From IMG/VR virus record IMGVR_UViG_3300014846_000039: DNA of 7,722 nt; one strand, written 5' to 3'. Every line of letters begins with the position of its first letter. The first letter of the stretch is position 1. Positions 1-6,702 of the stretch are shown here, one piece after another. The translations under genes were made by a program, and so were the position numbers. A model generated the notes under the pieces. That model saw only the letters and a list, made by a program, of their open reading frames with translations, searched no databases and had not been told where the DNA came from. This DNA comes from a virus. Its lineage: Duplodnaviria > Heunggongvirae > Uroviricota > Caudoviricetes.

Positions 1-426
1 ACGCTGGCGGTGGTAACCGCAACGGGGCGGCTGGCACGCGTTAATCAGAACGGTAAATTTCGTTACTGCATGCCGGGGGGTAATTTACCAGCAGATCCGA
101 AAACCGCGCCGGTAACGGAAAATGATGGTAAGGCCTTTCCTCAGCCAGCAGGTGCTGCGTTACCAGTCCGGGAAGCCGCAACACAGGAAGAAATTAAAAC
201 AGAAACTGTGGCGGACATTGTGCAGCCGTTGCCATCGTTTACCGAAACGCAAGCAGATGAGCTGATTTTTCCGTCCCTTCGCAGGGCAAACCTGGCGCTG
301 CGCAGGGCGAAAAGTGATGTTCAGAAGTGGGAGCGAGTCTGCGCCGCGCTGCGGGAGCTGAACAAGCACCGGGATATTGTTCGACAGATTACTGATTCTT
401 CCCGCCGTGTTGTATCGGAAAAGTGA
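1..426 (+). CDS. Hypothetical phage protein, 3' portion only (5' end lies upstream of the window)
   Basis: Frame 1 is open from nt 1 to TGA at 424-426 with no in-window upstream stop; the GTG at 10 in the ORF track is probably an internal codon. No motif recognised. Followed by a well-placed RBS and start of the next gene. Confidence 0.5.
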
Positions 427-441
427 TTGCCGGAGGCGCTT

Positions 442-867
442 ATGGCAAAAGTATTTACACAAGAAGAGCGGGAAAAAATTAAAGGGCAGGTTGTTGAACT
501 TGTACGTCTGAGCGGTCGCGAGACGTTGCGGCAACTGGAAGCCAAGACAGGTGCGACAAGATATCTGATGAGTGTTCTCGCCAGAGAGCTGGTTGCCAGT
601 GGCGATGTATACAACTCTGGTTACGGGTTATTCCCGTCTGAACAGGCGCGTAAGGACTGGCAAAATGCTCGCAAAAAACTCTCAAGGGCAAAGGTGAAGA
701 AACCTGCAGTGGTTGATCCGGACCTTATCTGGTCGTTACCAGACGGCGAAATACGCCGCTACGACAGGCGCCTGAACATAATCTGTCGCGAGTGCCGGAA
801 GAGCGAAGCTATGCAGCGTGTACTGGCATTTTATCAAGGAAATGTTAGGTATTTTAGACGTTACTAG
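442..867 (+). CDS. Hypothetical prophage protein (about 141 aa)
   Basis: ATG at 442 preceded by GGAGG at 432-436 (5-nt spacing); ORF track lists 427..867 from a TTG, but the ATG with this RBS is the more plausible start. Stop TAG 865-867. No family recognised. Confidence 0.55.
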   Translation: MAKVFTQEEREKIKGQVVELVRLSGRETLRQLEAKTGATRYLMSVLARELVASGDVYNSGYGLFPSEQARKDWQNARKKLSRAKVKKPAVVDPDLIWSLPDGEIRRYDRRLNIICRECRKSEAMQRVLAFYQGNVRYFRRY

Positions 868-1020
868 ATTAAAGAGCATTAGTTCAGATGTGAATTGACA
901 TTTTCATGGCGCAGGGTAGAGCCAGCGTGGTTGTCCGCTTTGCGTCAAAACCAGATATTACCAGATTTAGACATATATTCCCGATAGCCCTGCTCTGATG
1001 CTACACTCTGTGCTATTTTC

Positions 1021-1707
1021 ATGACCCCAATAAAAATATTTATGACTATTGCTGATTTCAAACGGCCTAAATTGGAGCTCCCAAACGGGGCAAACAAACT
1101 ACTACTGCACTCTTGCTGTGCTCCATGTTCCGGTGAAGTGATGGAGGCGCTTCAGGCCTCGGGAATCGACTACACCATCTTTTTCTACAACCCGAACATT
1201 CATCCTCAGAAAGAGTATTTAATTCGTAAGGATGAAAATATTCGCTTTGCTGAACAACACGGCGTGCCGTTTATCGATGCTGATTACGACACCGACAACT
1301 GGTTTGAACGTGCCAAAGGAATGGAATGGGAGCCTGAGAGGGGGATCCGTTGTACCATGTGTTTTGACATGCGTTTTGAGCGGACAGCGTTGTACGCTGC
1401 TGAAAATGGTTTCAGTGTGATCAGCAGTTCACTGGGCATTTCACGCTGGAAAAATATGCAGCAGGTTAACGAGTGTGGGCGGCGAGCTGTTGCGCATTAT
1501 CCGGGTATGGTGTACTGGGATTATAACTGGCGCAAGCAGGGCGGCTCGTCCCGTATGATTGAAATCAGCAAGCGCGAAAAATTCTATCAGCAGGAATATT
1601 GTGGCTGTGTGTATTCTCTGCGCGATACCAATCTACACCGCAAATCTCAGGGACGCCCTCTTATCAAAATTGGCCAACTCCACTACGGAAAAGAAGAGAA
1701 GGAGTGA
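1021..1707 (+). CDS. queH: Epoxyqueuosine reductase QueH-like protein (DUF208 family)
   Basis: 228-aa ORF with the N-terminal [11 protein letters not shown] cysteine motif and further conserved Cys (CTMCFD, CGC) that I associate with DUF208/QueH. No obvious Shine-Dalgarno before 1021; in-frame alternative start ATG at 1042. Assignment by motif memory only. Confidence 0.6.
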
Positions 1708-1945
1708 TTTTATGGATCACCTTTCTGATTGATTTCATATTGGCGAGGTGACGTGAGTTAAGTAGAATGGCTGCGGGGGGCTTGAGGCTATCTGTCTCAG
1801 GCATGAACACTGAAAGGCAGATAGAGAAAAGCCCCAGTTAACATTTCGCGTCCTGCAAGACGCTTAACATTAATCTGAGGCCCAATCTATGTCTCACAAA
1901 TGTAGGTTAGCCTCTTACGTGCCGAAAGGCAAGGGGAAGCAGGCT

Positions 1946-2209
1946 ATGAAGCAGCAAAAGGCGATGTTAATCGCCCTGATCGTCATCTGTTTAACCGTCA
2001 TTGTGACGGCACTGGTAACGAGGAAAGACCTCTGCGAGGTACGAATCCGAACCGGCCAGACGGAGGTCGCTGTCTTCACAGCTTTGCCAGGCATCCTCAA
2101 CGCACCCGCACTTAACCCGCTTCGGCGGGTTTTTGCATTAGTCTGGTTGACAAAAATAGAAAAATGCGAAAATATGTGGTTTACGAATTCTAAAAAAAGC
2201 GAAACTTGA
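1946..2209 (+). CDS. hokD: Hok/Gef-family membrane toxin, HokD(RelF)-like for the first 46 codons, with replaced and extended 3' end (possible pseudogene or variant)
   Basis: ATG 1946 with SD AAGGGGA at 1931-1937. Residues 1-46 (MKQQKAMLIALIVICLTVIVTALVTRKDLCEVRIRTGQTEVAVFTA) match HokD/RelF as I remember it; canonical Hok proteins are about 50 aa, but here the frame runs on to TGA 2207-2209 (87 aa) through a terminator hairpin and a promoter-like sequence. The ORF-track start at 1889 is in frame but upstream of the SD-supported ATG. Confidence 0.65.
   Translation: MKQQKAMLIALIVICLTVIVTALVTRKDLCEVRIRTGQTEVAVFTALPGILNAPALNPLRRVFALVWLTKIEKCENMWFTNSKKSET
2115..2134 (+). repeat. Direct repeat copy 1 (acccgcttcggcgggttttt), identical to 3950-3969
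   Basis: Exact 20-nt identity read directly from the sequence. Confidence 0.85.
2116..2134 (+). terminator. Rho-independent terminator-like hairpin (5-bp GC stem cccgc/gcggg, TTCG tetraloop, T5 run)
   Basis: Stem 2116-2120 pairs with 2125-2129, loop ttcg 2121-2124, T-run 2130-2134; lies inside the extended hok frame and just upstream of the cassette promoter-like element. Confidence 0.55.
2147..2176 (+). promoter_or_regulatory. Putative sigma70 promoter for the cassette (perfect -35 TTGACA, weak AT-rich -10)
   Basis: TTGACA at 2147-2152; about 17 nt downstream an AT-rich -10 candidate (aaatat 2170-2175); 35 nt before ATG 2211. The -10 is poor, so low confidence. Confidence 0.3.
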
Positions 2210-2210
2210 A

Positions 2211-2861
2211 ATGAATGAAAATCAGTTAGCTCCTTGTTGGGAATTTCAACCTTATCTTGCTGAAAACTATGTTCGCCACTTGTTGGCGGAGATCGCTAAC
2301 GTACTTGAGCAGCTGTACTATCATAAGCACGCATTAGACAGCAACTGGTCTGAAGGTGTAAGGGCTTATGATTGGGTCAGAAATCATCTTATTCAAAATG
2401 AAGATGCAATTCCTGGCCTTGAGATGATTTCCAAGGGGTTGGACTATGTAGTTGCTTTAAATAAAGTTCCGCTACAATTTACCAAAGATTGCATTAATAA
2501 CCCCAAAAAGAAACATCGTCTGCGTCGAAATAAAGTAGAGTATGAGCAGCTCTCATTGTTTGGTGATGTTGAGGCTGAGCAAGATATTACATGGCGAGTC
2601 ATAGCTGAGCCTTTTTTATCCGAAGAGGGCGATGGTGAATTAGAGTCCACACTGCCTCGTTGGGAGGTAGCTCTTGTTGGATTTAATACTTATGGTGCTC
2701 AGATTAGTATAGTTTCTCATCAATCTACAGCATCGATGCCGCTTATGCCTCTTGATTATAACACACTCCCTGACGAAGCGGAGATTAATAAGGTGCCTCT
2801 TCGTCGGCGTACGAAGGATAAAGATTTGGATGTGAGCAGTGATGGAACATCAGGTGAATAA
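2211..2861 (+). CDS. Hypothetical protein, 216 aa, no recognisable family; first gene of the inserted cassette
   Basis: ATG 2211, TAA 2859-2861; overlaps the downstream gene by 20 nt (operon-like). AT-rich codon usage (hand-counted samples about 33-38% G+C versus about 50% in flanking genes). No clear SD. Acidic protein with two basic patches (NPKKKHRLRRNK, VPLRRRTKDKD); no TM segment or catalytic motif recognised. Confidence 0.6.
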   Translation: MNENQLAPCWEFQPYLAENYVRHLLAEIANVLEQLYYHKHALDSNWSEGVRAYDWVRNHLIQNEDAIPGLEMISKGLDYVVALNKVPLQFTKDCINNPKKKHRLRRNKVEYEQLSLFGDVEAEQDITWRVIAEPFLSEEGDGELESTLPRWEVALVGFNTYGAQISIVSHQSTASMPLMPLDYNTLPDEAEINKVPLRRRTKDKDLDVSSDGTSGE

Positions 2862-3945
2862 CTTCACTGAGTATCGGGGTGATAAGCTCAAACTAGCGAG
2901 AATGGCTGTTGGGCTTTCTTGTGAAGAGTTAGCCGAAAAAATTGGCAAGACAAAGCAATTCGTTAGCAAACTGGAGAAGGGGTGCAGGCCATCGGAGCAA
3001 TGTCTTGAGTTAATATCTTCAGCGCTTATGATTAAGTCCAGTTTTCTTTTTACTGAACGAAAATACGCTCTGGAAAGTGATGTCTGCCATTTTCGGAGTA
3101 AGAAGTCCAGGACTCAAACGCTGACTAATAGTGTATTGGCCAGGGCTGAGATTCTTAATATTATAATTTCTGCTGTTGAAGGTGAAATCGAATTTCCTGA
3201 CGTTAACATACCGGAGCACCCAGGGGCTGAATTACTTACTCCGAATGATATTGAGCGAGTGGCAGAAGATTGTCGCCGTGCCTGGAATTTAGGTCTTGGC
3301 CCTATATCATCAATGGTTAAATTGGCGGAGAGTTTAGGGGTAATCGTTGCGCATGTTACGGGAGTCGATGATCGTGTTGATGCTTTTACTGTTCACAATA
3401 ACAGGCCTGTTATCATCAGGAACAATGTTAAAAAAAGCATATGTAGATTTCGCTCTGATTTAGGTCATGAATTAGGGCATTTAGTAATGCATGAGGGCAT
3501 AACGACAGGTGATAAACTTACGGAATCACAAGCCGATCACTTTTCGAGCGCCTTATTAGTTCCCAGGTTATCTTTCATTAAAGAATTTCCACGAATACGA
3601 GGTAAGCAATTCGACTGGAATGCTCTGGTTGAATTTAAACTTAGATGGAAAATCAGCCTTAAAATGTGTATTTATCGAGCCAGCGCATTAGGCTTATTGA
3701 CCCAGGAACAGGCAAGAACTGGCTATATGCATCTTAATTCCAGAGGGTATACGAGAGTTGAACCTGGTGATGAACTTTTGCGCCCTGAAGAACCCGGCAT
3801 GCTGGCCGAGGCGATTGAAATGCTGGATGATGCAACCTGGCTAAGAATTCTTATGAAAACTGGCTTGAGCCAAGATTTAATTCGTGAGTTGTTCTCCATC
3901 AACAGACCTATTACAAATCCAAGAAATATTTTCCAGATTGTTTGA
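2842..3945 (+). CDS. HTH_XRE DNA-binding domain fused to ImmA/IrrE-family (COG2856, M78-like) zinc metallopeptidase, with a C-terminal extension of about 110 aa
   Basis: N-terminal XRE-type HTH (LKLARMAVGLSCEELAEKIGKTKQFVSKLEKG); HEXXH zinc motif HELGH encoded at 3466-3480; downstream third-ligand motif typical of ImmA/IrrE (ESQADHFSSALLVP). ORF track starts at GTG 2839; the adjacent ATG at 2842 is preferred. Stop TGA 3943-3945, followed immediately by a terminator. Confidence 0.8.
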   Translation: MEHQVNNFTEYRGDKLKLARMAVGLSCEELAEKIGKTKQFVSKLEKGCRPSEQCLELISSALMIKSSFLFTERKYALESDVCHFRSKKSRTQTLTNSVLARAEILNIIISAVEGEIEFPDVNIPEHPGAELLTPNDIERVAEDCRRAWNLGLGPISSMVKLAESLGVIVAHVTGVDDRVDAFTVHNNRPVIIRNNVKKSICRFRSDLGHELGHLVMHEGITTGDKLTESQADHFSSALLVPRLSFIKEFPRIRGKQFDWNALVEFKLRWKISLKMCIYRASALGLLTQEQARTGYMHLNSRGYTRVEPGDELLRPEEPGMLAEAIEMLDDATWLRILMKTGLSQDLIRELFSINRPITNPRNIFQIV

Positions 3946-3949
3946 GTAT

Positions 3950-3969
3950 ACCCGCTTCGGCGGGTTTTT
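3950..3969 (+). repeat. Direct repeat copy 2 (acccgcttcggcgggttttt), identical to 2115-2134
   Basis: Exact 20-nt identity read directly from the sequence. Confidence 0.85.
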
Positions 3970-3970
3970 T
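3951..3970 (+). terminator. Rho-independent terminator (cccgc / TTCG loop / gcggg, T6 run) ending the cassette
   Basis: Stem 3951-3955 / 3960-3964, loop 3956-3959, T-run 3965-3970; 5 nt after the stop codon of the peptidase gene. Confidence 0.6.
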
Positions 3971-3989
3971 GTTTTTATTTTCAACGTGT

Positions 3990-4019
3990 TTGAAGTTTTG
4001 GACGGTGCCAGAATAGAAT
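3990..4019 (+). promoter_or_regulatory. Putative promoter (TTGAAG, 18-nt spacer, TAGAAT) upstream of the small ORFs
   Basis: -35-like TTGAAG 3990-3995 and -10-like TAGAAT 4014-4019; sequence-only guess. Confidence 0.25.
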
Positions 4020-4054
4020 CAAAAATACTTAAGTAGCGCGCAGGGAGAAGAGGG

Positions 4055-4276
4055 ATGGACCCCGAACAGGGGGAGTGCTATTTATCTGGAAGGATTCTGT
4101 TGATGAAAATCGAAGAATTACGTGAAATTTTTAGTGAAGATGGCCTCTATGCTGTGCGCGTTGAGAATGGGGGTATTACCTACACAGCGTTAATTCCTGA
4201 TGATCATGTAGTGTTATCTGTTGAGGCATTCATTGAATACTTGGAAAGACTCGGTTTCAAGGTAGTTCGGGAATAA
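4055..4276 (+). CDS. Hypothetical small phage protein (73 aa; 57 aa if started at ATG 4103)
   Basis: ATG 4055 preceded by purine-rich GGGAGAAGAGGG (4043-4054); alternative ATG 4103 preceded by GGAAGGA (4088-4094). Stop TAA 4274-4276. No family recognised. Confidence 0.5.
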   Translation: MDPEQGECYLSGRILLMKIEELREIFSEDGLYAVRVENGGITYTALIPDDHVVLSVEAFIEYLERLGFKVVRE

Positions 4277-4335
4277 GTTATAATACGTGAGCCAGCCTGA
4301 ACAACTGGCACCTGCTGCGCCAGCAGAGACAACCG

Positions 4336-4608
4336 ATGGCGCACAATACCAAACACCACAATTCTGATGCCGACCCTGCCAGCAGACACGGACGGCGCTC
4401 TCACGCATTCAAATATGACTGGTACCAGCATGACCAATGCACTGAAGAACAGGCCGAGTGGCTGATTCAGAATTACCGCAGACGTGGATACCAGTTTCAG
4501 AAAGGCCTCAGTCCTGACTTCCGACACTGGATAATTTCCGTCAGGCTCCCTTATTCCGAACGCCCGCCGCGTCCGTCCCGCACATATCAGCAACGCATCT
4601 GGAGGTAA
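4336..4608 (+). CDS. Hypothetical small basic protein (90 aa)
   Basis: ORF from the track; no clear SD; its stop TAA 4606-4608 is embedded in the RBS/start of the next gene, suggesting coupling. Positionally analogous to the small gene (rem) that I recall between hokD and ydfU in the K-12 Qin prophage, but the sequence was not recognised. Confidence 0.4.
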   Translation: MAHNTKHHNSDADPASRHGRRSHAFKYDWYQHDQCTEEQAEWLIQNYRRRGYQFQKGLSPDFRHWIISVRLPYSERPPRPSRTYQQRIWR

Positions 4609-4609
4609 C

Positions 4610-5668
4610 GTGCGGGTATTACTTCGACCTGTTCTGGTACCGGAACTCAGTCTGGTTATCGTTAAGCCAGGCCGTGAATCAATGTCAGTATTCCATAACG
4701 GCAGAATATTGGTGGAACCGGAACCCAAAAACATGCGCAGTCTTCCGTCCGGCGTCGTTGCAGCCGTTAGCCAGCCGTTGGCTGAGGATAAAACATTACT
4801 ACCATTTTTCAGCGATGAGCGGGTAATTCGTGCAGCAGGTGGTGCAGGTGCACTGTCTGACTGGTTATTACGTCACGTGAAATCCTGCCAGTGGCCACAC
4901 GGCGATTATCATCACAGCGAAACAGTCATTCACCGTTACGGTACCGGCGCGATGGTGTTGTGCTGGCACTGTGACAACCAGCTGCGCAACCAGACATCAG
5001 AATCACTCGATCAACTTGCTCAGCAGAATCTGGTTGCCTGGATGATTGACGTCATCCGTCACGCAATAAGCGGTACGCAGGAGAGGGAGTTATCGCTGGC
5101 CGAATTATCCTGGTGGGCGGCCTGCAATCAGGTGGTGGATGCACTACCTGAGGCAGTAGCGCGTCGTTCGCTGGGATTACCGGTGGAAACAATCCGCTCC
5201 GTATACCGTGAGAGTGACATCGTACCGGGAGAACAGACAGCCATCAGCATACTGAAGCAGCGCACAAAAAATATTGCGCTTCCACTTCACGTCCACCAGC
5301 AACAGCCCCCACCCCAGGAAAAGACGTTAGTAAGCATCGCCGTTGATCCGGAGTCTCCGGCTCAGTACCTCCAGCGCCAGAAACCACAACGGGAAGAGAT
5401 GCCTGTATACACGCGCTGGGTAAAAACGCAGAAATGCATGACGTGCGGTAATCAGGCAGATGATCCGCATCACATCATTGGTCATGGACTGGGAGGGATG
5501 GGAACAAAGGCTGACGATTTGTTTGTTATTCCGTTGTGCCGTAAATGCCATAACAAACTACATGCCGGAGTAAAAGATTTTGAAGAAAAACACGGCAGTC
5601 AGCTGTTGTTGCTGATTCGTTTTTTAATGCACGCGAGAAATTCGGGTGTTCTGAAGTGGAAAGCATAA
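4610..5668 (+). CDS. DUF968-family prophage protein (YdfU-like) with C-terminal HNH-like Cys/His motif
   Basis: GTG 4610 preceded by GGAGG 4601-4605; alternative ATG at 4682. C-terminus carries CMTCGNQADDPHHIIGHGLGG...CRKCHNKLH, a Cys/His pattern I associate with DUF968/HNH-like zinc-binding. Stop TAA 5666-5668 directly abuts the rusA ATG. Confidence 0.65.
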   Translation: MRVLLRPVLVPELSLVIVKPGRESMSVFHNGRILVEPEPKNMRSLPSGVVAAVSQPLAEDKTLLPFFSDERVIRAAGGAGALSDWLLRHVKSCQWPHGDYHHSETVIHRYGTGAMVLCWHCDNQLRNQTSESLDQLAQQNLVAWMIDVIRHAISGTQERELSLAELSWWAACNQVVDALPEAVARRSLGLPVETIRSVYRESDIVPGEQTAISILKQRTKNIALPLHVHQQQPPPQEKTLVSIAVDPESPAQYLQRQKPQREEMPVYTRWVKTQKCMTCGNQADDPHHIIGHGLGGMGTKADDLFVIPLCRKCHNKLHAGVKDFEEKHGSQLLLLIRFLMHARNSGVLKWKA

Positions 5669-6049
5669 ATGACCGAACGCATAGAATTTGTTTTGCCTTA
5701 CCCGCCGACGGTGAACACTTACTGGCGACGCCGTGGCAGCACATATTTTGTATCAAAAGCCGGGGAGCGTTATCGCCGGGCAGTGGCGCTTATTGTTCGC
5801 CAGCAGCGGCTGAAATTAAGCCTGTCCGGAAGGTTGGCAATAAAAATTATTGCAGAACCACCGGATAAGCGCCGCCGTGACCCGGACAATATTCTGAAAG
5901 CGCCGCTGGATGCGCTGACGCATGCGGGGTTGCTAATGGACGATGAGCAGTTTGATGAAATCAATATCGTTCGTGCTCAGCCAGTATCTGGTGGACGTCT
6001 GGGGGTGAAGATTTACCCCATAATGCTTGAAGGGCAGGTCAAAAAATGA
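5669..6049 (+). CDS. rusA: Holliday-junction resolvase RusA family
   Basis: 126-aa ORF with RusA-like blocks (LPYPPTVNTYWRR; DKRRRDPDNILKAPLDALTHAGLLMDDEQ; GGRLGV) comparable to E. coli RusA. Stop overlaps the next start (ATGA at 6046-6049). Confidence 0.85.
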   Translation: MTERIEFVLPYPPTVNTYWRRRGSTYFVSKAGERYRRAVALIVRQQRLKLSLSGRLAIKIIAEPPDKRRRDPDNILKAPLDALTHAGLLMDDEQFDEINIVRAQPVSGGRLGVKIYPIMLEGQVKK

Positions 6050-6702
6050 AACTGGAAGATTTACCGAAATACTACTCCCCAAAATCCCCCGGCCTGACTG
6101 ATGCATCGGCCTCAACGTCGAAAGATGCGCTGAGTATCACTGATGTGATGGCCGCGCAGGGCATGACACAGAATCGGGCTGAGATGGGGTTTTCTGCGTT
6201 CCTTGGGAAAATGGGCATTAGTATGAATGACAGAGAGCGGGCAACAGAATTGCTGACAGAATATGCACTCAGTCGGTGTGATCGCGTGGCGGCGTTAAGA
6301 AAACTCCCGGCAGAAATAAAACCGGTAGTGATGCGCATTATGGCTTCGTACGCTTTTGAGGATTATGCCCGCAGCGCAGCGAGTAAAAAGCAGTGCCCTT
6401 GTTGCTATGGGGAAAAATTTATTGAAAGCGTAGTTTTTACAAACAAGGTCCAGTATCCGGATGGTAAGCCGCCGGTATGGGCAAAGTGTACGAAAGGTGT
6501 GTATCCGTCTTACTGGGAAGAATGGAAAAAAAATCGGGAGGTGGTAAAAGTTGCCTGTCCGGAGTGTGGCGGAAAGGGTGAGGTTTCCACCGCCTGTAAG
6601 GATTGCCGTGGGCGTGGTGTCGCCATTCATCGTGAAGAGTCGGTAAAACGTGGTATGCCTGTTATCAGAGACTGCCAGCGTTGTGGTTGGTCGTGGCTGT
6701 GA
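6046..6702 (+). CDS. Late-gene antitermination protein Q family
   Basis: 218-aa ORF immediately after rusA (typical lambdoid order), with Cys-rich zinc-finger-like segments (CPCCYGEKF, CPECGGKGEVSTACKDCRGRG, CQRCGW) and followed by a promoter plus intrinsic terminator, as expected for Q / pR' / tR'. Confidence 0.75.
   Translation: MKLEDLPKYYSPKSPGLTDASASTSKDALSITDVMAAQGMTQNRAEMGFSAFLGKMGISMNDRERATELLTEYALSRCDRVAALRKLPAEIKPVVMRIMASYAFEDYARSAASKKQCPCCYGEKFIESVVFTNKVQYPDGKPPVWAKCTKGVYPSYWEEWKKNREVVKVACPECGGKGEVSTACKDCRGRGVAIHREESVKRGMPVIRDCQRCGWSWL

What the first reader, a model, noticed from the sequence alone, without database searches (positions are those of the whole stretch)
2211..2861. 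Orphan 216-aa protein with no recognisable motif, translationally overlapping the peptidase-regulator gene
The ORF is long, uninterrupted and AT-rich like its partner, and its last 20 nt overlap the start of the HTH-peptidase gene, implying co-translation. It has no TM helix, nucleotide-binding or nuclease motif that I can identify, only two basic patches (NPKKKHRLRRNK and VPLRRRTKDKD) in an otherwise acidic sequence. In Xre/COG2856-associated pairs the partner is often the effector, so this is the most likely novel component.
Basis: inference. Interest (0 to 1): 0.6.

Follow-up and report, generated by a model that had tools for sequence, protein, structure and literature searches.

The report
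Known RosmerTA toxin gene, not an orphan
The 216-residue protein is the toxin half (RmrT) of a catalogued two-gene toxin-antitoxin and anti-phage cassette (RosmerTA) sitting in an E. coli prophage, so it is not a new component, but it carries a textbook DNA-sliding-clamp-binding motif that suggests how this unexplained toxin family might work.

Summary
The ORF (2211-2861, + strand, 216 aa) is real. It overlaps the HTH-peptidase gene by 20 nt, has low GC, no membrane segment and two basic patches, and is under strong purifying selection.

It is not an orphan. PADLOC identifies it as RmrT (PDLC03929, E=4.6e-25) and its partner as RmrA (E=6e-105), which together make a RosmerTA system. Profile searches find a family of about 60 clusters, each ~200 aa. 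Every family locus I examined had a ~370-aa HTH+M78 gene directly downstream. The family includes close relatives of Vmi480, a Vibrio toxin shown in 2015 to kill E. coli unless Vmi470 is present.

The identical pair occurs in 232 of 5,426 complete E. coli genomes. It forms a 1,835-bp cassette inserted at a terminator between hokD and the next prophage gene.

No fold or Pfam relative was found, so the biochemical mechanism is still open.

One observation appears to be new. Residues 113-117 are QLSLF, the exact consensus beta-clamp-binding motif (p≈3.5e-4 in shuffles). The motif is conserved across the family and sits in a low-confidence loop. Another Rosmer toxin, RipA, is reported to target DnaN. 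I therefore propose clamp poisoning as the mechanism, at about 40%.

Verdict: already known as a system, with moderate interest.

The parts
2115..2134 (+). Left copy of the 20-nt direct repeat ACCCGCTTCGGCGGGTTTTT. It is the hokD terminator hairpin and marks the left edge of the inserted cassette.
   Evidence: The empty site holds a single copy.
2145..2210 (+). Conserved 66-nt leader of the cassette. It is a candidate promoter (perfect -35 TTGACA at 2147-2152, weak -10) with two imperfect 34-nt direct repeats that may be operators for the RmrA HTH.
   Evidence: It is 86% identical to the Serratia and P4-like copies although synonymous sites are near saturation. Identity falls to ~30% immediately upstream. 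The promoter and operator roles are inferred.
2211..2861 (+). rmrT, the 216-aa toxin component of RosmerTA (the finding).
   Evidence: PADLOC RmrT PDLC03929, E=4.6e-25. PHROG 5786. Purifying selection. RefSeq WP_001004956.1, annotated 'hypothetical protein'.
2334..2369 (+). Conserved loop LDSNWSEGVRAY (aa 42-53). D43, W46, G49, R51 and Y53 are among the most conserved family positions.
   Evidence: pLDDT is low here.
2499..2534 (+). Basic patch NPKKKHRLRRNK (aa 97-108), directly upstream of the clamp-motif-like pentapeptide.
   Evidence: PKKxHRL is conserved in the enterobacterial, Vibrio, Pseudomonas and Aeromonas subgroups.
2547..2561 (+). QLSLF (aa 113-117), an exact match to the bacterial beta-sliding-clamp-binding consensus QL[S/D]LF.
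   Evidence: Sequence. p=3.5e-4 in composition-matched shuffles. Conserved across the family. Consensus cited from PMC12309361. Binding itself is inferred.
2793..2825 (+). C-terminal basic patch VPLRRRTKDKD (aa 195-205) in the less conserved tail.
2842..3945 (+). rmrA, the 367-aa antitoxin/regulator (N-terminal Xre-type HTH plus M78/ImmA-IrrE Zn-peptidase). It overlaps rmrT by 20 nt.
   Evidence: PADLOC RmrA PDLC03943, E=6e-105. Pfam HTH_3 and Peptidase_M78. 29% identical (E=2e-35) to the verified RmrA of E. coli OLC-716. RefSeq WP_000401168.1.
2887..3027 (+). HTH_3 domain of RmrA.
   Evidence: aa 17-63 of the 368-aa GTG-start translation.
3367..3684 (+). Peptidase_M78 domain of RmrA, with the HELGH (HExxH) zinc motif at 3466-3480.
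3950..3969 (+). Right copy of the 20-nt direct repeat. It is the terminator hairpin after rmrA and marks the right edge of the cassette.

Best explanation
ORF 2211-2861 encodes RmrT, the toxin of a RosmerTA toxin-antitoxin/anti-phage module. The overlapping downstream gene encodes RmrA, the antitoxin, a fused Xre-type HTH and M78 Zn-peptidase. The two genes, a conserved 66-nt leader and a terminator form a 1.8-kb 'moron' cassette inserted at the hokD terminator in the nin region of a lambdoid E. coli prophage.

Shown here:
- Family membership.
- The conserved two-gene architecture.
- Mobility of the cassette.
- Purifying selection on the gene.

Shown by others for homologues:
- The first gene product is lethal and the second neutralises it (Vmi480/Vmi470).
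- Rosmer systems protect against phages, although the verified system uses a different RmrT family.

Inferred mechanism, about 40% likely. RmrT is a soluble protein that docks onto the beta sliding clamp (DnaN) through its exposed, optimal QLSLF motif and blocks replication. In uninfected cells RmrA keeps it harmless through HTH autorepression plus proteolytic or adaptor action, possibly with ClpXP. During infection this control fails, and replication of host and phage stops, which is abortive infection.
For: Identity:
- PADLOC RmrT E=4.6e-25 and RmrA E=6e-105.
- All 54 divergent family members hit the same RmrT model.
- An HTH+M78 gene of ~370 aa lies directly downstream in all seven family loci examined, in unrelated neighbourhoods.
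- RmrA has an intact HExxH motif.

Link to an experimentally tested toxin:
- Primer sequences give the Vmi480 termini as MTKKPEFY and KVQKKVSDE. These match cluster P0033 (MTPKPEFY...KIQKEVDDDE, 199 aa against 198 aa).
- The P0033 group aligns to the window's family at 99.8% probability, E=2.8e-29.
- Vmi480 kills E. coli, and vmi470 cannot be deleted on its own.

Cassette:
- 232 genomes carry it. About 2,787 have the empty site with one terminator copy.
- The leader is conserved.

Clamp hypothesis:
- The exact QLSLF has p=3.5e-4 in shuffles.
- At the aligned position, Q is present in 52/53, L/M in 49/53, S/D in 40/53, L in 36/53 and F in 42/53 sequences (44, 27, 25, 39 and 16 of 54 in the 50%-cluster representatives).
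- A relaxed motif is present in 83% and 46% of the two sets, against 0.9% in shuffles.
- Q113 and E110 rank 9th and 12th of 216 columns for conservation.
- The motif lies in the low-pLDDT insertion at residues 96-123.
- The consensus is QL[S/D]LF, and QLSLF binds the E. coli clamp with sub-micromolar affinity (PMC12309361).
- The Rosmer toxin RipA targets the hydrophobic pocket of DnaN and needs ClpX for neutralisation (PMC12795458).
- An E. coli E101 prophage pair is reported as 33%/42% identical to Vmi480/470, and it makes clpP essential.
Against: - No experiment exists for this protein. Anti-phage activity was verified only for a Rosmer system whose RmrT is unrelated in sequence (BLASTP finds no similarity; hhalign probability 1%).
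- The clamp idea rests on a short linear motif. With the deeper alignment AF2 draws residues 108-115 as a low-confidence helix. E110, three residues upstream, is even more conserved than the motif, so the segment could instead be a structural element or the antitoxin-binding site.
- In the most divergent family members the fifth position is often A, D or P rather than F or L.
- I could not obtain the RipA or E101_02645 sequences, so their relation to this family is untested.
- Full-length Vmi480 was not available. Only its termini were compared.
Confidence: 0.85

Rival explanations
1. RmrT is a Rosmer toxin, but its target is something other than the sliding clamp. On this reading the conserved E..QLSLF segment is a structural helix or the surface recognised by RmrA, and the conserved D43-W46-G49-R51-Y53 loop is the active or binding site.
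For: AF2 with the deeper alignment draws residues 108-115 as a helix. E110 is more conserved than the motif residues. The D43..Y53 loop holds several of the most conserved positions. The T46S suppressor in the E101 toxin may map to that loop. Many family members deviate from F/L at motif position 5.
Against: An exact optimal clamp motif is unlikely by chance (3.5e-4). Its Q, L and F positions are the conserved ones, as in real clamp-binding motifs. There is a precedent of a Rosmer toxin acting on the motif-binding pocket of DnaN.
Confidence: 0.4
2. RmrT is a nuclease with a degenerate restriction-endonuclease-like (PD-(D/E)xK) core that degrades DNA when released.
Confidence: 0.08
3. RmrT kills by depolarising or permeabilising the membrane, as shown for the Rosmer toxin RmrT(D5) of Gordonia phage Kita.
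For: A Rosmer toxin with this mechanism exists (PMC10440598).
Against: The protein is acidic (pI 4.9) and hydrophilic (GRAVY -0.54). Its most hydrophobic 19-residue window scores only 0.84, so there is no transmembrane segment. The Kita toxin belongs to a different sequence cluster and has a predicted membrane region.
Confidence: 0.04
4. The roles are reversed. The HTH-peptidase is the harmful component and the 216-aa protein restrains it or acts as sensor or substrate, as reported for PD-lambda-2, where the Xre-peptidase alone was toxic.
For: Vassallo et al. found PD-lambda-2B (HTH+peptidase) toxic and rescued by the upstream gene (PMC9519451).
Against: In the homologous Vmi480/470 pair the first gene is the lethal one, and the peptidase gene cannot be deleted alone. 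Decayed natural copies lose the first gene and keep rmrA: an IS5 insertion in rmrT with rmrA intact, and a frameshifted toxin next to an intact 362-aa partner in V. sonorensis. In Millman's system it was rmrA that could not be deleted.
Confidence: 0.05
5. The ORF is a chance open frame or an ordinary structural or housekeeping phage gene.
For: None beyond the RefSeq annotation 'hypothetical protein'.
Against: dN/dS ≈0.09 with near-saturated synonymous sites. There are hundreds of identical copies and a wide family. There are no hits to structural phage families, and the gene is absent from 50,697 deposited phage genomes at both DNA and protein level. It is present or absent as a cassette.
Confidence: 0.01

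Closest known systems
RosmerTA (RmrT/RmrA) anti-phage toxin-antitoxin system, Millman et al. 2022; verified example from E. coli OLC-716
   Same: The architecture is the same: a small protein of unknown function directly upstream of, and coupled to, a ~370-aa HTH+Zn-peptidase (M78/ImmA-IrrE) protein. RmrA is homologous (29% identity, E=2e-35). Both genes hit PADLOC Rosmer models.
   Different: The toxin belongs to a different RmrT sequence family: PDLC03929 here against PDLC03935 for the verified one. There is no detectable homology. Defence has not been tested for this family.
Vmi480/Vmi470 toxin-antitoxin pair of Vibrio mimicus MGIVmi1 (Luo et al. 2015, PMC4671572)
   Same: It belongs to the same RmrT family. 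The Vmi480 termini match cluster P0033, which aligns with the window's family at 99.8% probability. Gene order is the same (toxin first) and the sizes are similar (198+362 aa against 216+367 aa). Toxicity in E. coli and neutralisation by the partner have been shown.
   Different: Identity is only ~24% (window against P0033). Vmi480/470 lies on a mobilisable genomic island with a 5-bp gap between the genes, whereas here the pair is in a lambdoid prophage with a 20-nt overlap.
RipA/RipB (Spr1630/Spr1629) Rosmer-family TA of Streptococcus pneumoniae (PMC12795458)
   Same: The antitoxin is of the same kind (NCBIfam spr1629-family model, E=1.5e-45, below its equivalog cut-off). The toxin is reported to act on the hydrophobic pocket of the DnaN sliding clamp, which is the pocket that binds QL[S/D]LF motifs, and the window's toxin carries such a motif.
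   Different: RipA's clamp link is genetic and yeast-two-hybrid evidence. No clamp motif is mentioned in that paper.
SocAB (type VI TA) of Caulobacter crescentus
   Same: The toxin acts on the beta clamp. ClpXP is needed to keep the toxin harmless, in parallel with the clpP/clpX dependence reported for the E101 pair and for RipAB.
   Different: SocA is a small ClpXP adaptor, not an HTH-peptidase. There is no sequence similarity. ClpXP involvement is untested here.
ImmR/ImmA and DdrO/IrrE repressor-metalloprotease switches
   Same: RmrA combines both halves, an Xre HTH and an M78/COG2856 peptidase with HExxH.
   Different: Those systems are two proteins that control gene expression of mobile elements or DNA-repair regulons, and they have no toxin partner.

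Membership tests
RosmerTA defence system | RmrA: one protein with an N-terminal Xre-type HTH and a C-terminal Zn-peptidase (M78/ImmA-IrrE, COG2856) that matches an RmrA profile | tested here: met
   Pfam HTH_3 5e-07 and Peptidase_M78 6e-11. PADLOC RmrA PDLC03943 E=6e-105, plus 13 further RmrA models. 29% identical to the verified RmrA.
RosmerTA defence system | An intact HExxH zinc-binding motif in the peptidase domain | tested here: met
   HELGH at aa 209-213 of RmrA, nt 3466-3480.
RosmerTA defence system | An adjacent co-oriented small gene that matches an RmrT profile | tested here: met
   PADLOC RmrT PDLC03929 E=4.6e-25 over aa 7-209. 54 of 54 family members hit the same model.
RosmerTA defence system | The two genes travel together as a unit across taxa and contexts | tested here: met
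   An HTH+M78 gene lies directly downstream in 7 of 7 loci: MAGs and metagenomes, a P4-like element, a Serratia prophage and a Xenorhabdus prophage, and V. sonorensis.
RosmerTA defence system | RmrT is toxic and RmrA neutralises it | not testable with these tools
   Shown for the homologous Vmi480/Vmi470 pair (PMC4671572). In Millman's system rmrA could not be deleted. Natural decay hits rmrT and spares rmrA.
RosmerTA defence system | Protection against phage infection | not testable with these tools
   Verified only for the OLC-716 system (a different RmrT family) and for the phage Kita system.
Vmi480-type RmrT family (PADLOC PDLC03929) | Sequence homology to Vmi480 | tested here: met
   This was tested by proxy. 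The Vmi480 N- and C-termini recovered from primers match cluster P0033. P0033 hits PDLC03929 at 4e-35. Its group aligns with the window's family at 99.8% probability, E=2.8e-29, over 185 columns. Full-length Vmi480 was not compared.
Beta-sliding-clamp (DnaN) binding proteins | Presence of a clamp-binding motif QL[S/D]LF (or QxxLF / QLxLxL) | tested here: met
   QLSLF at aa 113-117. p=3.5e-4 for the strict motif and 3.4% for any loose form in shuffles.
Beta-sliding-clamp (DnaN) binding proteins | The motif is conserved in homologues at the key positions 1, 4 and 5 | tested here: inconclusive
   Conservation is strong in one set (Q 52/53, L 36/53, F 42/53). It is weaker among the 50%-cluster representatives (Q 44/54, L 39/54, F or L 26/54).
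Beta-sliding-clamp (DnaN) binding proteins | The motif is accessible in a flexible region | tested here: inconclusive
   It lies in the insertion at residues 96-123, with pLDDT 34-56. One model leaves the pentapeptide 113-117 mostly as coil. The other draws a helix at 108-115.
Beta-sliding-clamp (DnaN) binding proteins | Physical binding to the clamp pocket | not testable with these tools
   No complex prediction or assay was available.
PD-(D/E)xK nucleases | Conserved catalytic D...(D/E)xK residues on the beta2-beta3 hairpin | tested here: not met
Membrane-depolarising Rosmer toxins (Kita RmrT D5 type) | A predicted transmembrane or strongly hydrophobic segment | tested here: not met
   The highest 19-residue hydropathy is 0.84, GRAVY is -0.54 and pI is 4.9.

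The most novel reading that the evidence does not exclude
Rosmer toxins of the Vmi480 family, and perhaps Rosmer toxins more generally, are sliding-clamp poisons. They use an optimal QL[S/D]LF clamp-binding motif on a flexible loop to occupy the DnaN pocket and stall replication of host and phage. The HTH-peptidase RmrA, together with ClpXP, keeps them in check in the manner of SocAB.

Supporting hints beyond this family:
- The sequence-unrelated, experimentally verified RmrT of E. coli OLC-716 has a QLKLDL (QLxLxL-type) motif in a variable loop. Its Vibrio-type relatives have NLDLF at that place.
- RipA genetically targets the same DnaN pocket.

I found no paper in the searchable library that links Rosmer toxins to a clamp-binding motif.
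Probability: 0.35. Interest if true: 0.65.

Novelty: already known. Interest (0 to 1): 0.38.

Why it matters
As a gene pair this is an ordinary instance of a catalogued defence/TA system, and standard tools such as PADLOC would flag it. Its value lies in three points:

- It corrects the 'hypothetical protein' annotation carried by several hundred identical database copies (413 member sequences; 232 complete E. coli genomes).
- It ties the PADLOC RmrT family PDLC03929 to the experimentally toxic Vmi480, which is widely used as a counter-selection marker.
- How any soluble Rosmer toxin kills is essentially unknown. A conserved, optimal clamp-binding motif gives a cheap and decisive hypothesis.

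If the hypothesis holds, it would explain the puzzling ClpXP dependence of these modules. It would connect RipA, SocB and Rosmer into one theme of clamp-targeting abortive infection. It would also predict which phages are sensitive, namely those that rely on host DnaN.

Tried and rejected
- Pfam and NCBIfam on the ORF gave no hit. Pfam on 54 family members gave none.
- A family profile against all PDB sequences gave nothing below E=0.35.
- Two AF2 models had only medium confidence (pLDDT 62 and 67, pTM 0.6).
- The membrane-toxin reading was rejected on hydropathy.
- BLASTP and hhalign against the verified OLC-716 RmrT family showed no homology.
- Megablast and tblastn against 50,697 phage records found no match.
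- I tried to find the E. coli E101 toxin (WP_001179380.1) by listing members of 20 family clusters. It was not found, so the ClpP link rests only on the identity stated in that paper.
- I tried to fetch Vmi480 from genome contigs. Two alignments were too divergent for the tool. The single-protein scan returned only a frameshifted V. sonorensis copy. Millman's supplementary tables did not help.
- I checked whether any E. coli genome shares the window's 56-nt hokD deletion. None of the listed rows does, but the ranking cannot exclude it.
Full report
OBSERVATION

The window holds an uninterrupted ORF at 2211-2861 on the + strand (ATG to TAA, 216 aa). The next ORF encodes a protein with an HTH_3 domain and a Peptidase_M78 (ImmA/IrrE) domain. 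A GTG at 2839 is the alternative start.

Both genes are 42% GC with GC3 of 35-38%. The neighbouring genes are 48-52% GC (QueH 47.5%, the prophage genes downstream about 51%) with GC3 near 52%. The protein is acidic (pI 4.9) and hydrophilic. Its most hydrophobic 19-residue window scores 0.84, so there is no membrane segment. The two basic patches are at aa 97-108 and 195-205.

The ORF is a real gene. Against homologues from a P4-like element, a Serratia prophage and a Xenorhabdus prophage, synonymous sites differ at 65-83% and non-synonymous sites at 12-32%. For the closest homologue dN/dS is about 0.09.

WHAT IT IS

The protein is not an orphan. PADLOC identifies it as RmrT (model PDLC03929, E=4.6e-25, nearly full length) and its partner as RmrA (PDLC03943, E=6e-105, plus 13 further RmrA models). 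PHROGs places it in phrog_5786 (8e-85, unknown function) and places the partner in a 'transcriptional regulator' family.

RmrT and RmrA are the two genes of RosmerTA. Millman et al. [quoted passage not shown] The NetFlax study describes Rosmer as many different toxins paired with the same protease-type antitoxin.

FAMILY AND GENE NEIGHBOURHOOD

Close relatives (55-84% identity) occur in Enterobacter, Buttiauxella, Serratia, Salmonella, Plesiomonas and Xenorhabdus. A profile search of 1.84 billion cluster representatives finds 69 hits at E<1e-3, almost all 195-225 aa long. Named members come from Aeromonas, Vibrio, Pseudomonas, Photobacterium and Rhizobium, and all are annotated 'hypothetical'. 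All 54 divergent members tested hit the same PADLOC RmrT model.

In every locus I looked at, the gene is followed directly by a ~370-aa HTH+M78 gene. The spacing ranges from a 29-nt overlap to a 7-nt gap. The surrounding genes are unrelated from locus to locus:
- an integrase/resolvase island;
- a nif cluster;
- a P4-like satellite;
- the Q-to-lysis junction of a Serratia prophage;
- a Xenorhabdus nin-like region.

LINK TO AN EXPERIMENTALLY TESTED TOXIN

Luo et al. 2015 showed that vmi480 (198 aa) of Vibrio mimicus is lethal to E. coli. They also showed that vmi470 (362 aa, HTH+Zn-peptidase) neutralises it and cannot be deleted alone.

Their cloning primers give the Vmi480 termini as MTKKPEFY... 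and ...KVQKKVSDE. Cluster P0033 from Vibrio fluvialis (199 aa) reads MTPKPEFY...KIQKEVDDDE. It hits PDLC03929 at 4e-35. Its group aligns with the window's family at 99.8% probability, E=2.8e-29. A V. sonorensis relative shows the same geometry as vmi480/470, with a 5-nt gap before a 362-aa partner, but its toxin is frameshifted.

The window's protein is therefore a divergent member (~24% identity) of the Vmi480 toxin family.

By contrast, the RmrT that Millman verified for phage defence (E. coli OLC-716, sequence) belongs to another model (PDLC03935). It shows no homology to this family. Its RmrA is 29% identical to the window's RmrA.

GENOMIC SETTING

The window is the nin region of a lambdoid E. 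coli prophage. In order it carries:
- DUF977;
- QueH;
- hokD;
- the rmrTA pair;
- a phrog_340 gene;
- DUF968/HNH;
- RusA;
- Q.

The pair with identical sequence is present in 232 of 5,426 complete E. coli genomes. About 2,787 genomes have the same hokD-to-phrog_340 junction without it.

A direct alignment shows a 1,835-bp insertion bounded by two copies of the 20-nt terminator hairpin sequence ACCCGCTTCGGCGGGTTTTT. The empty site has one copy.

The 66 nt between GGTTGACA (2145) and the start codon are 86% identical to the Serratia and P4-like copies, even though synonymous sites in the gene are near saturation. Identity drops to about 30% just upstream. The leader therefore belongs to the mobile unit and is under selection. 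It holds a perfect -35 hexamer and two imperfect 34-nt direct repeats. I read these as a promoter plus operators for the RmrA HTH, which is an inference.

The cassette is absent from 50,697 deposited phage genomes at both DNA and protein level.

HOW IT MIGHT WORK

No fold or domain assignment was possible. There is no Pfam, NCBIfam or PDB sequence hit. The AF2 models have medium confidence (pLDDT 62-67). They show two N-terminal helices, a six-stranded sheet and low-confidence insertions. No structural neighbour is significant.

The most informative feature is a short motif. Residues 113-117 read QLSLF, the exact consensus of the bacterial beta-clamp-binding motif. The consensus is QL[S/D]LF, or QxxLF more generally, and QLSLF binds the E. 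coli clamp with sub-micromolar affinity (PMC12309361).

- Composition-matched shuffles give the strict motif in 0.035% of trials.
- The motif sits in the low-confidence insertion at residues 96-123, between strands 3 and 4, just after the basic patch.
- It is conserved. In a 53-sequence alignment Q is present in 52, L/M in 49, S/D in 40, L in 36 and F in 42 sequences. Among 54 representatives of 50%-identity clusters, Q is present in 44 and L in 39, and position 5 is F or L in 26.
- A relaxed pattern is present at the aligned place in 83% and 46% of the two sets, against 0.9% in shuffles.
- Q113 ranks 9th of 216 columns in information content.

Independent precedent comes from three systems:
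- The Rosmer-family toxin RipA of S. pneumoniae interacts with DnaN. It is suppressed by mutations in the hydrophobic pocket of DnaN and needs ClpX to be neutralised.
- SocB of Caulobacter is a clamp toxin removed by ClpXP.
- An E. coli E101 prophage pair, reported as 33%/42% identical to Vmi480/470, makes clpP essential.

I therefore propose the following model, at about 40%. RmrT poisons the sliding clamp. RmrA keeps it harmless by autorepression and proteolysis or hand-over to ClpXP. Infection breaks this control and stops replication.

The main rival, also about 40%, is that the conserved E..QLSLF segment is a structural or antitoxin-binding element and the target lies elsewhere. Three observations favour this rival. 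E110 is even more conserved than the motif. One model draws a helix there. Position 5 drifts in distant members.

COMPARISON AND NOVELTY

The pair meets every sequence-level criterion for RosmerTA:
- an RmrA profile match;
- an intact HExxH motif;
- an RmrT profile match;
- a conserved two-gene unit.

Toxicity and defence could not be tested here. It is a member of the Vmi480-type RmrT family, not of the family verified for defence. As a system it is already known and would be called by standard defence finders.

The clamp-motif observation appears to be new within the library I could search. Only the RipAB paper links Rosmer and DnaN, and it mentions no motif.

DECAYED COPIES

Decay hits the toxin gene and spares the antitoxin gene, as expected for a toxin-antitoxin pair:
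- Three frameshifted variants turned up among the close clusters, each a cluster with a single member sequence.
- A V. sonorensis copy is frameshifted next to an intact partner.
- An E. coli strain has IS5 inside rmrT with rmrA intact.

Noticed in passing
window 2089/2090 (hokD region, 1947-2209): The window lacks 56 nt that are present in every listed E. coli genome. The deletion removes the last hokD codons, its stop codon and a downstream GC-rich hairpin. The hok frame therefore runs on to a TGA at 2207-2209, one base before the rmrT start codon.
   Followed up: partly
window 2145-2212: Two imperfect 34-nt direct repeats (GGTTGACAAAAATAGAAAAATGCGAAAATATGTG and GGTTTACGAATTCTAAAAAAAGCGAAACTTGAAA, 20/34 identical) fill the conserved leader of the cassette. 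They are candidate operators for the RmrA HTH, overlapping a TTGACA -35 hexamer.
   Followed up: partly
window 2115-2134 and 3950-3969: An identical 20-nt terminator hairpin flanks the 1,835-bp rmrTA cassette. The empty site in about 2,787 E. coli genomes has one copy. This suggests that the cassette moves by recombination at terminators, or that it carries its own copy.
   Followed up: yes
L012 (E. coli FDAARGOS_1249) 875-2434; L010 (V. sonorensis) 2968-3596; proteins P0013, P0014, P0016: Decayed copies lose the toxin and keep the partner.
   Followed up: partly
Verified RmrT of E. coli OLC-716 (alignment A10), aa ~143-148: This sequence-unrelated Rosmer toxin also has a clamp-motif-like hexapeptide, QLKLDL (QLxLxL type), in a loop of variable length. 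Its Vibrio and Photobacterium relatives have NLDLF at that place. On its own this is weak (2.6-5.9% in shuffles).
   Followed up: partly
window 1021-1707: A prophage-borne epoxyqueuosine reductase QueH (Pfam 1e-65) sits just upstream of hokD in the nin region. It is an unusual tRNA-modification gene for a lambdoid prophage.
   Followed up: no
L007 (Logan ERR4968628_133) 397-5738; L008 (Serratia) 2235-6211: The same cassette sits in other known accessory-gene hotspots. One copy is downstream of a DUF927 primase in a P4-like element. Another lies between the Q antiterminator and the holin gene in a Serratia prophage.
   Followed up: partly
window 4055-4276: A 73-aa ORF of phrog_340 (1.8e-18, unknown function) lies directly after the cassette. 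In RefSeq genomes that carry the cassette, only a 75-nt pseudogene fragment is annotated there.
   Followed up: no
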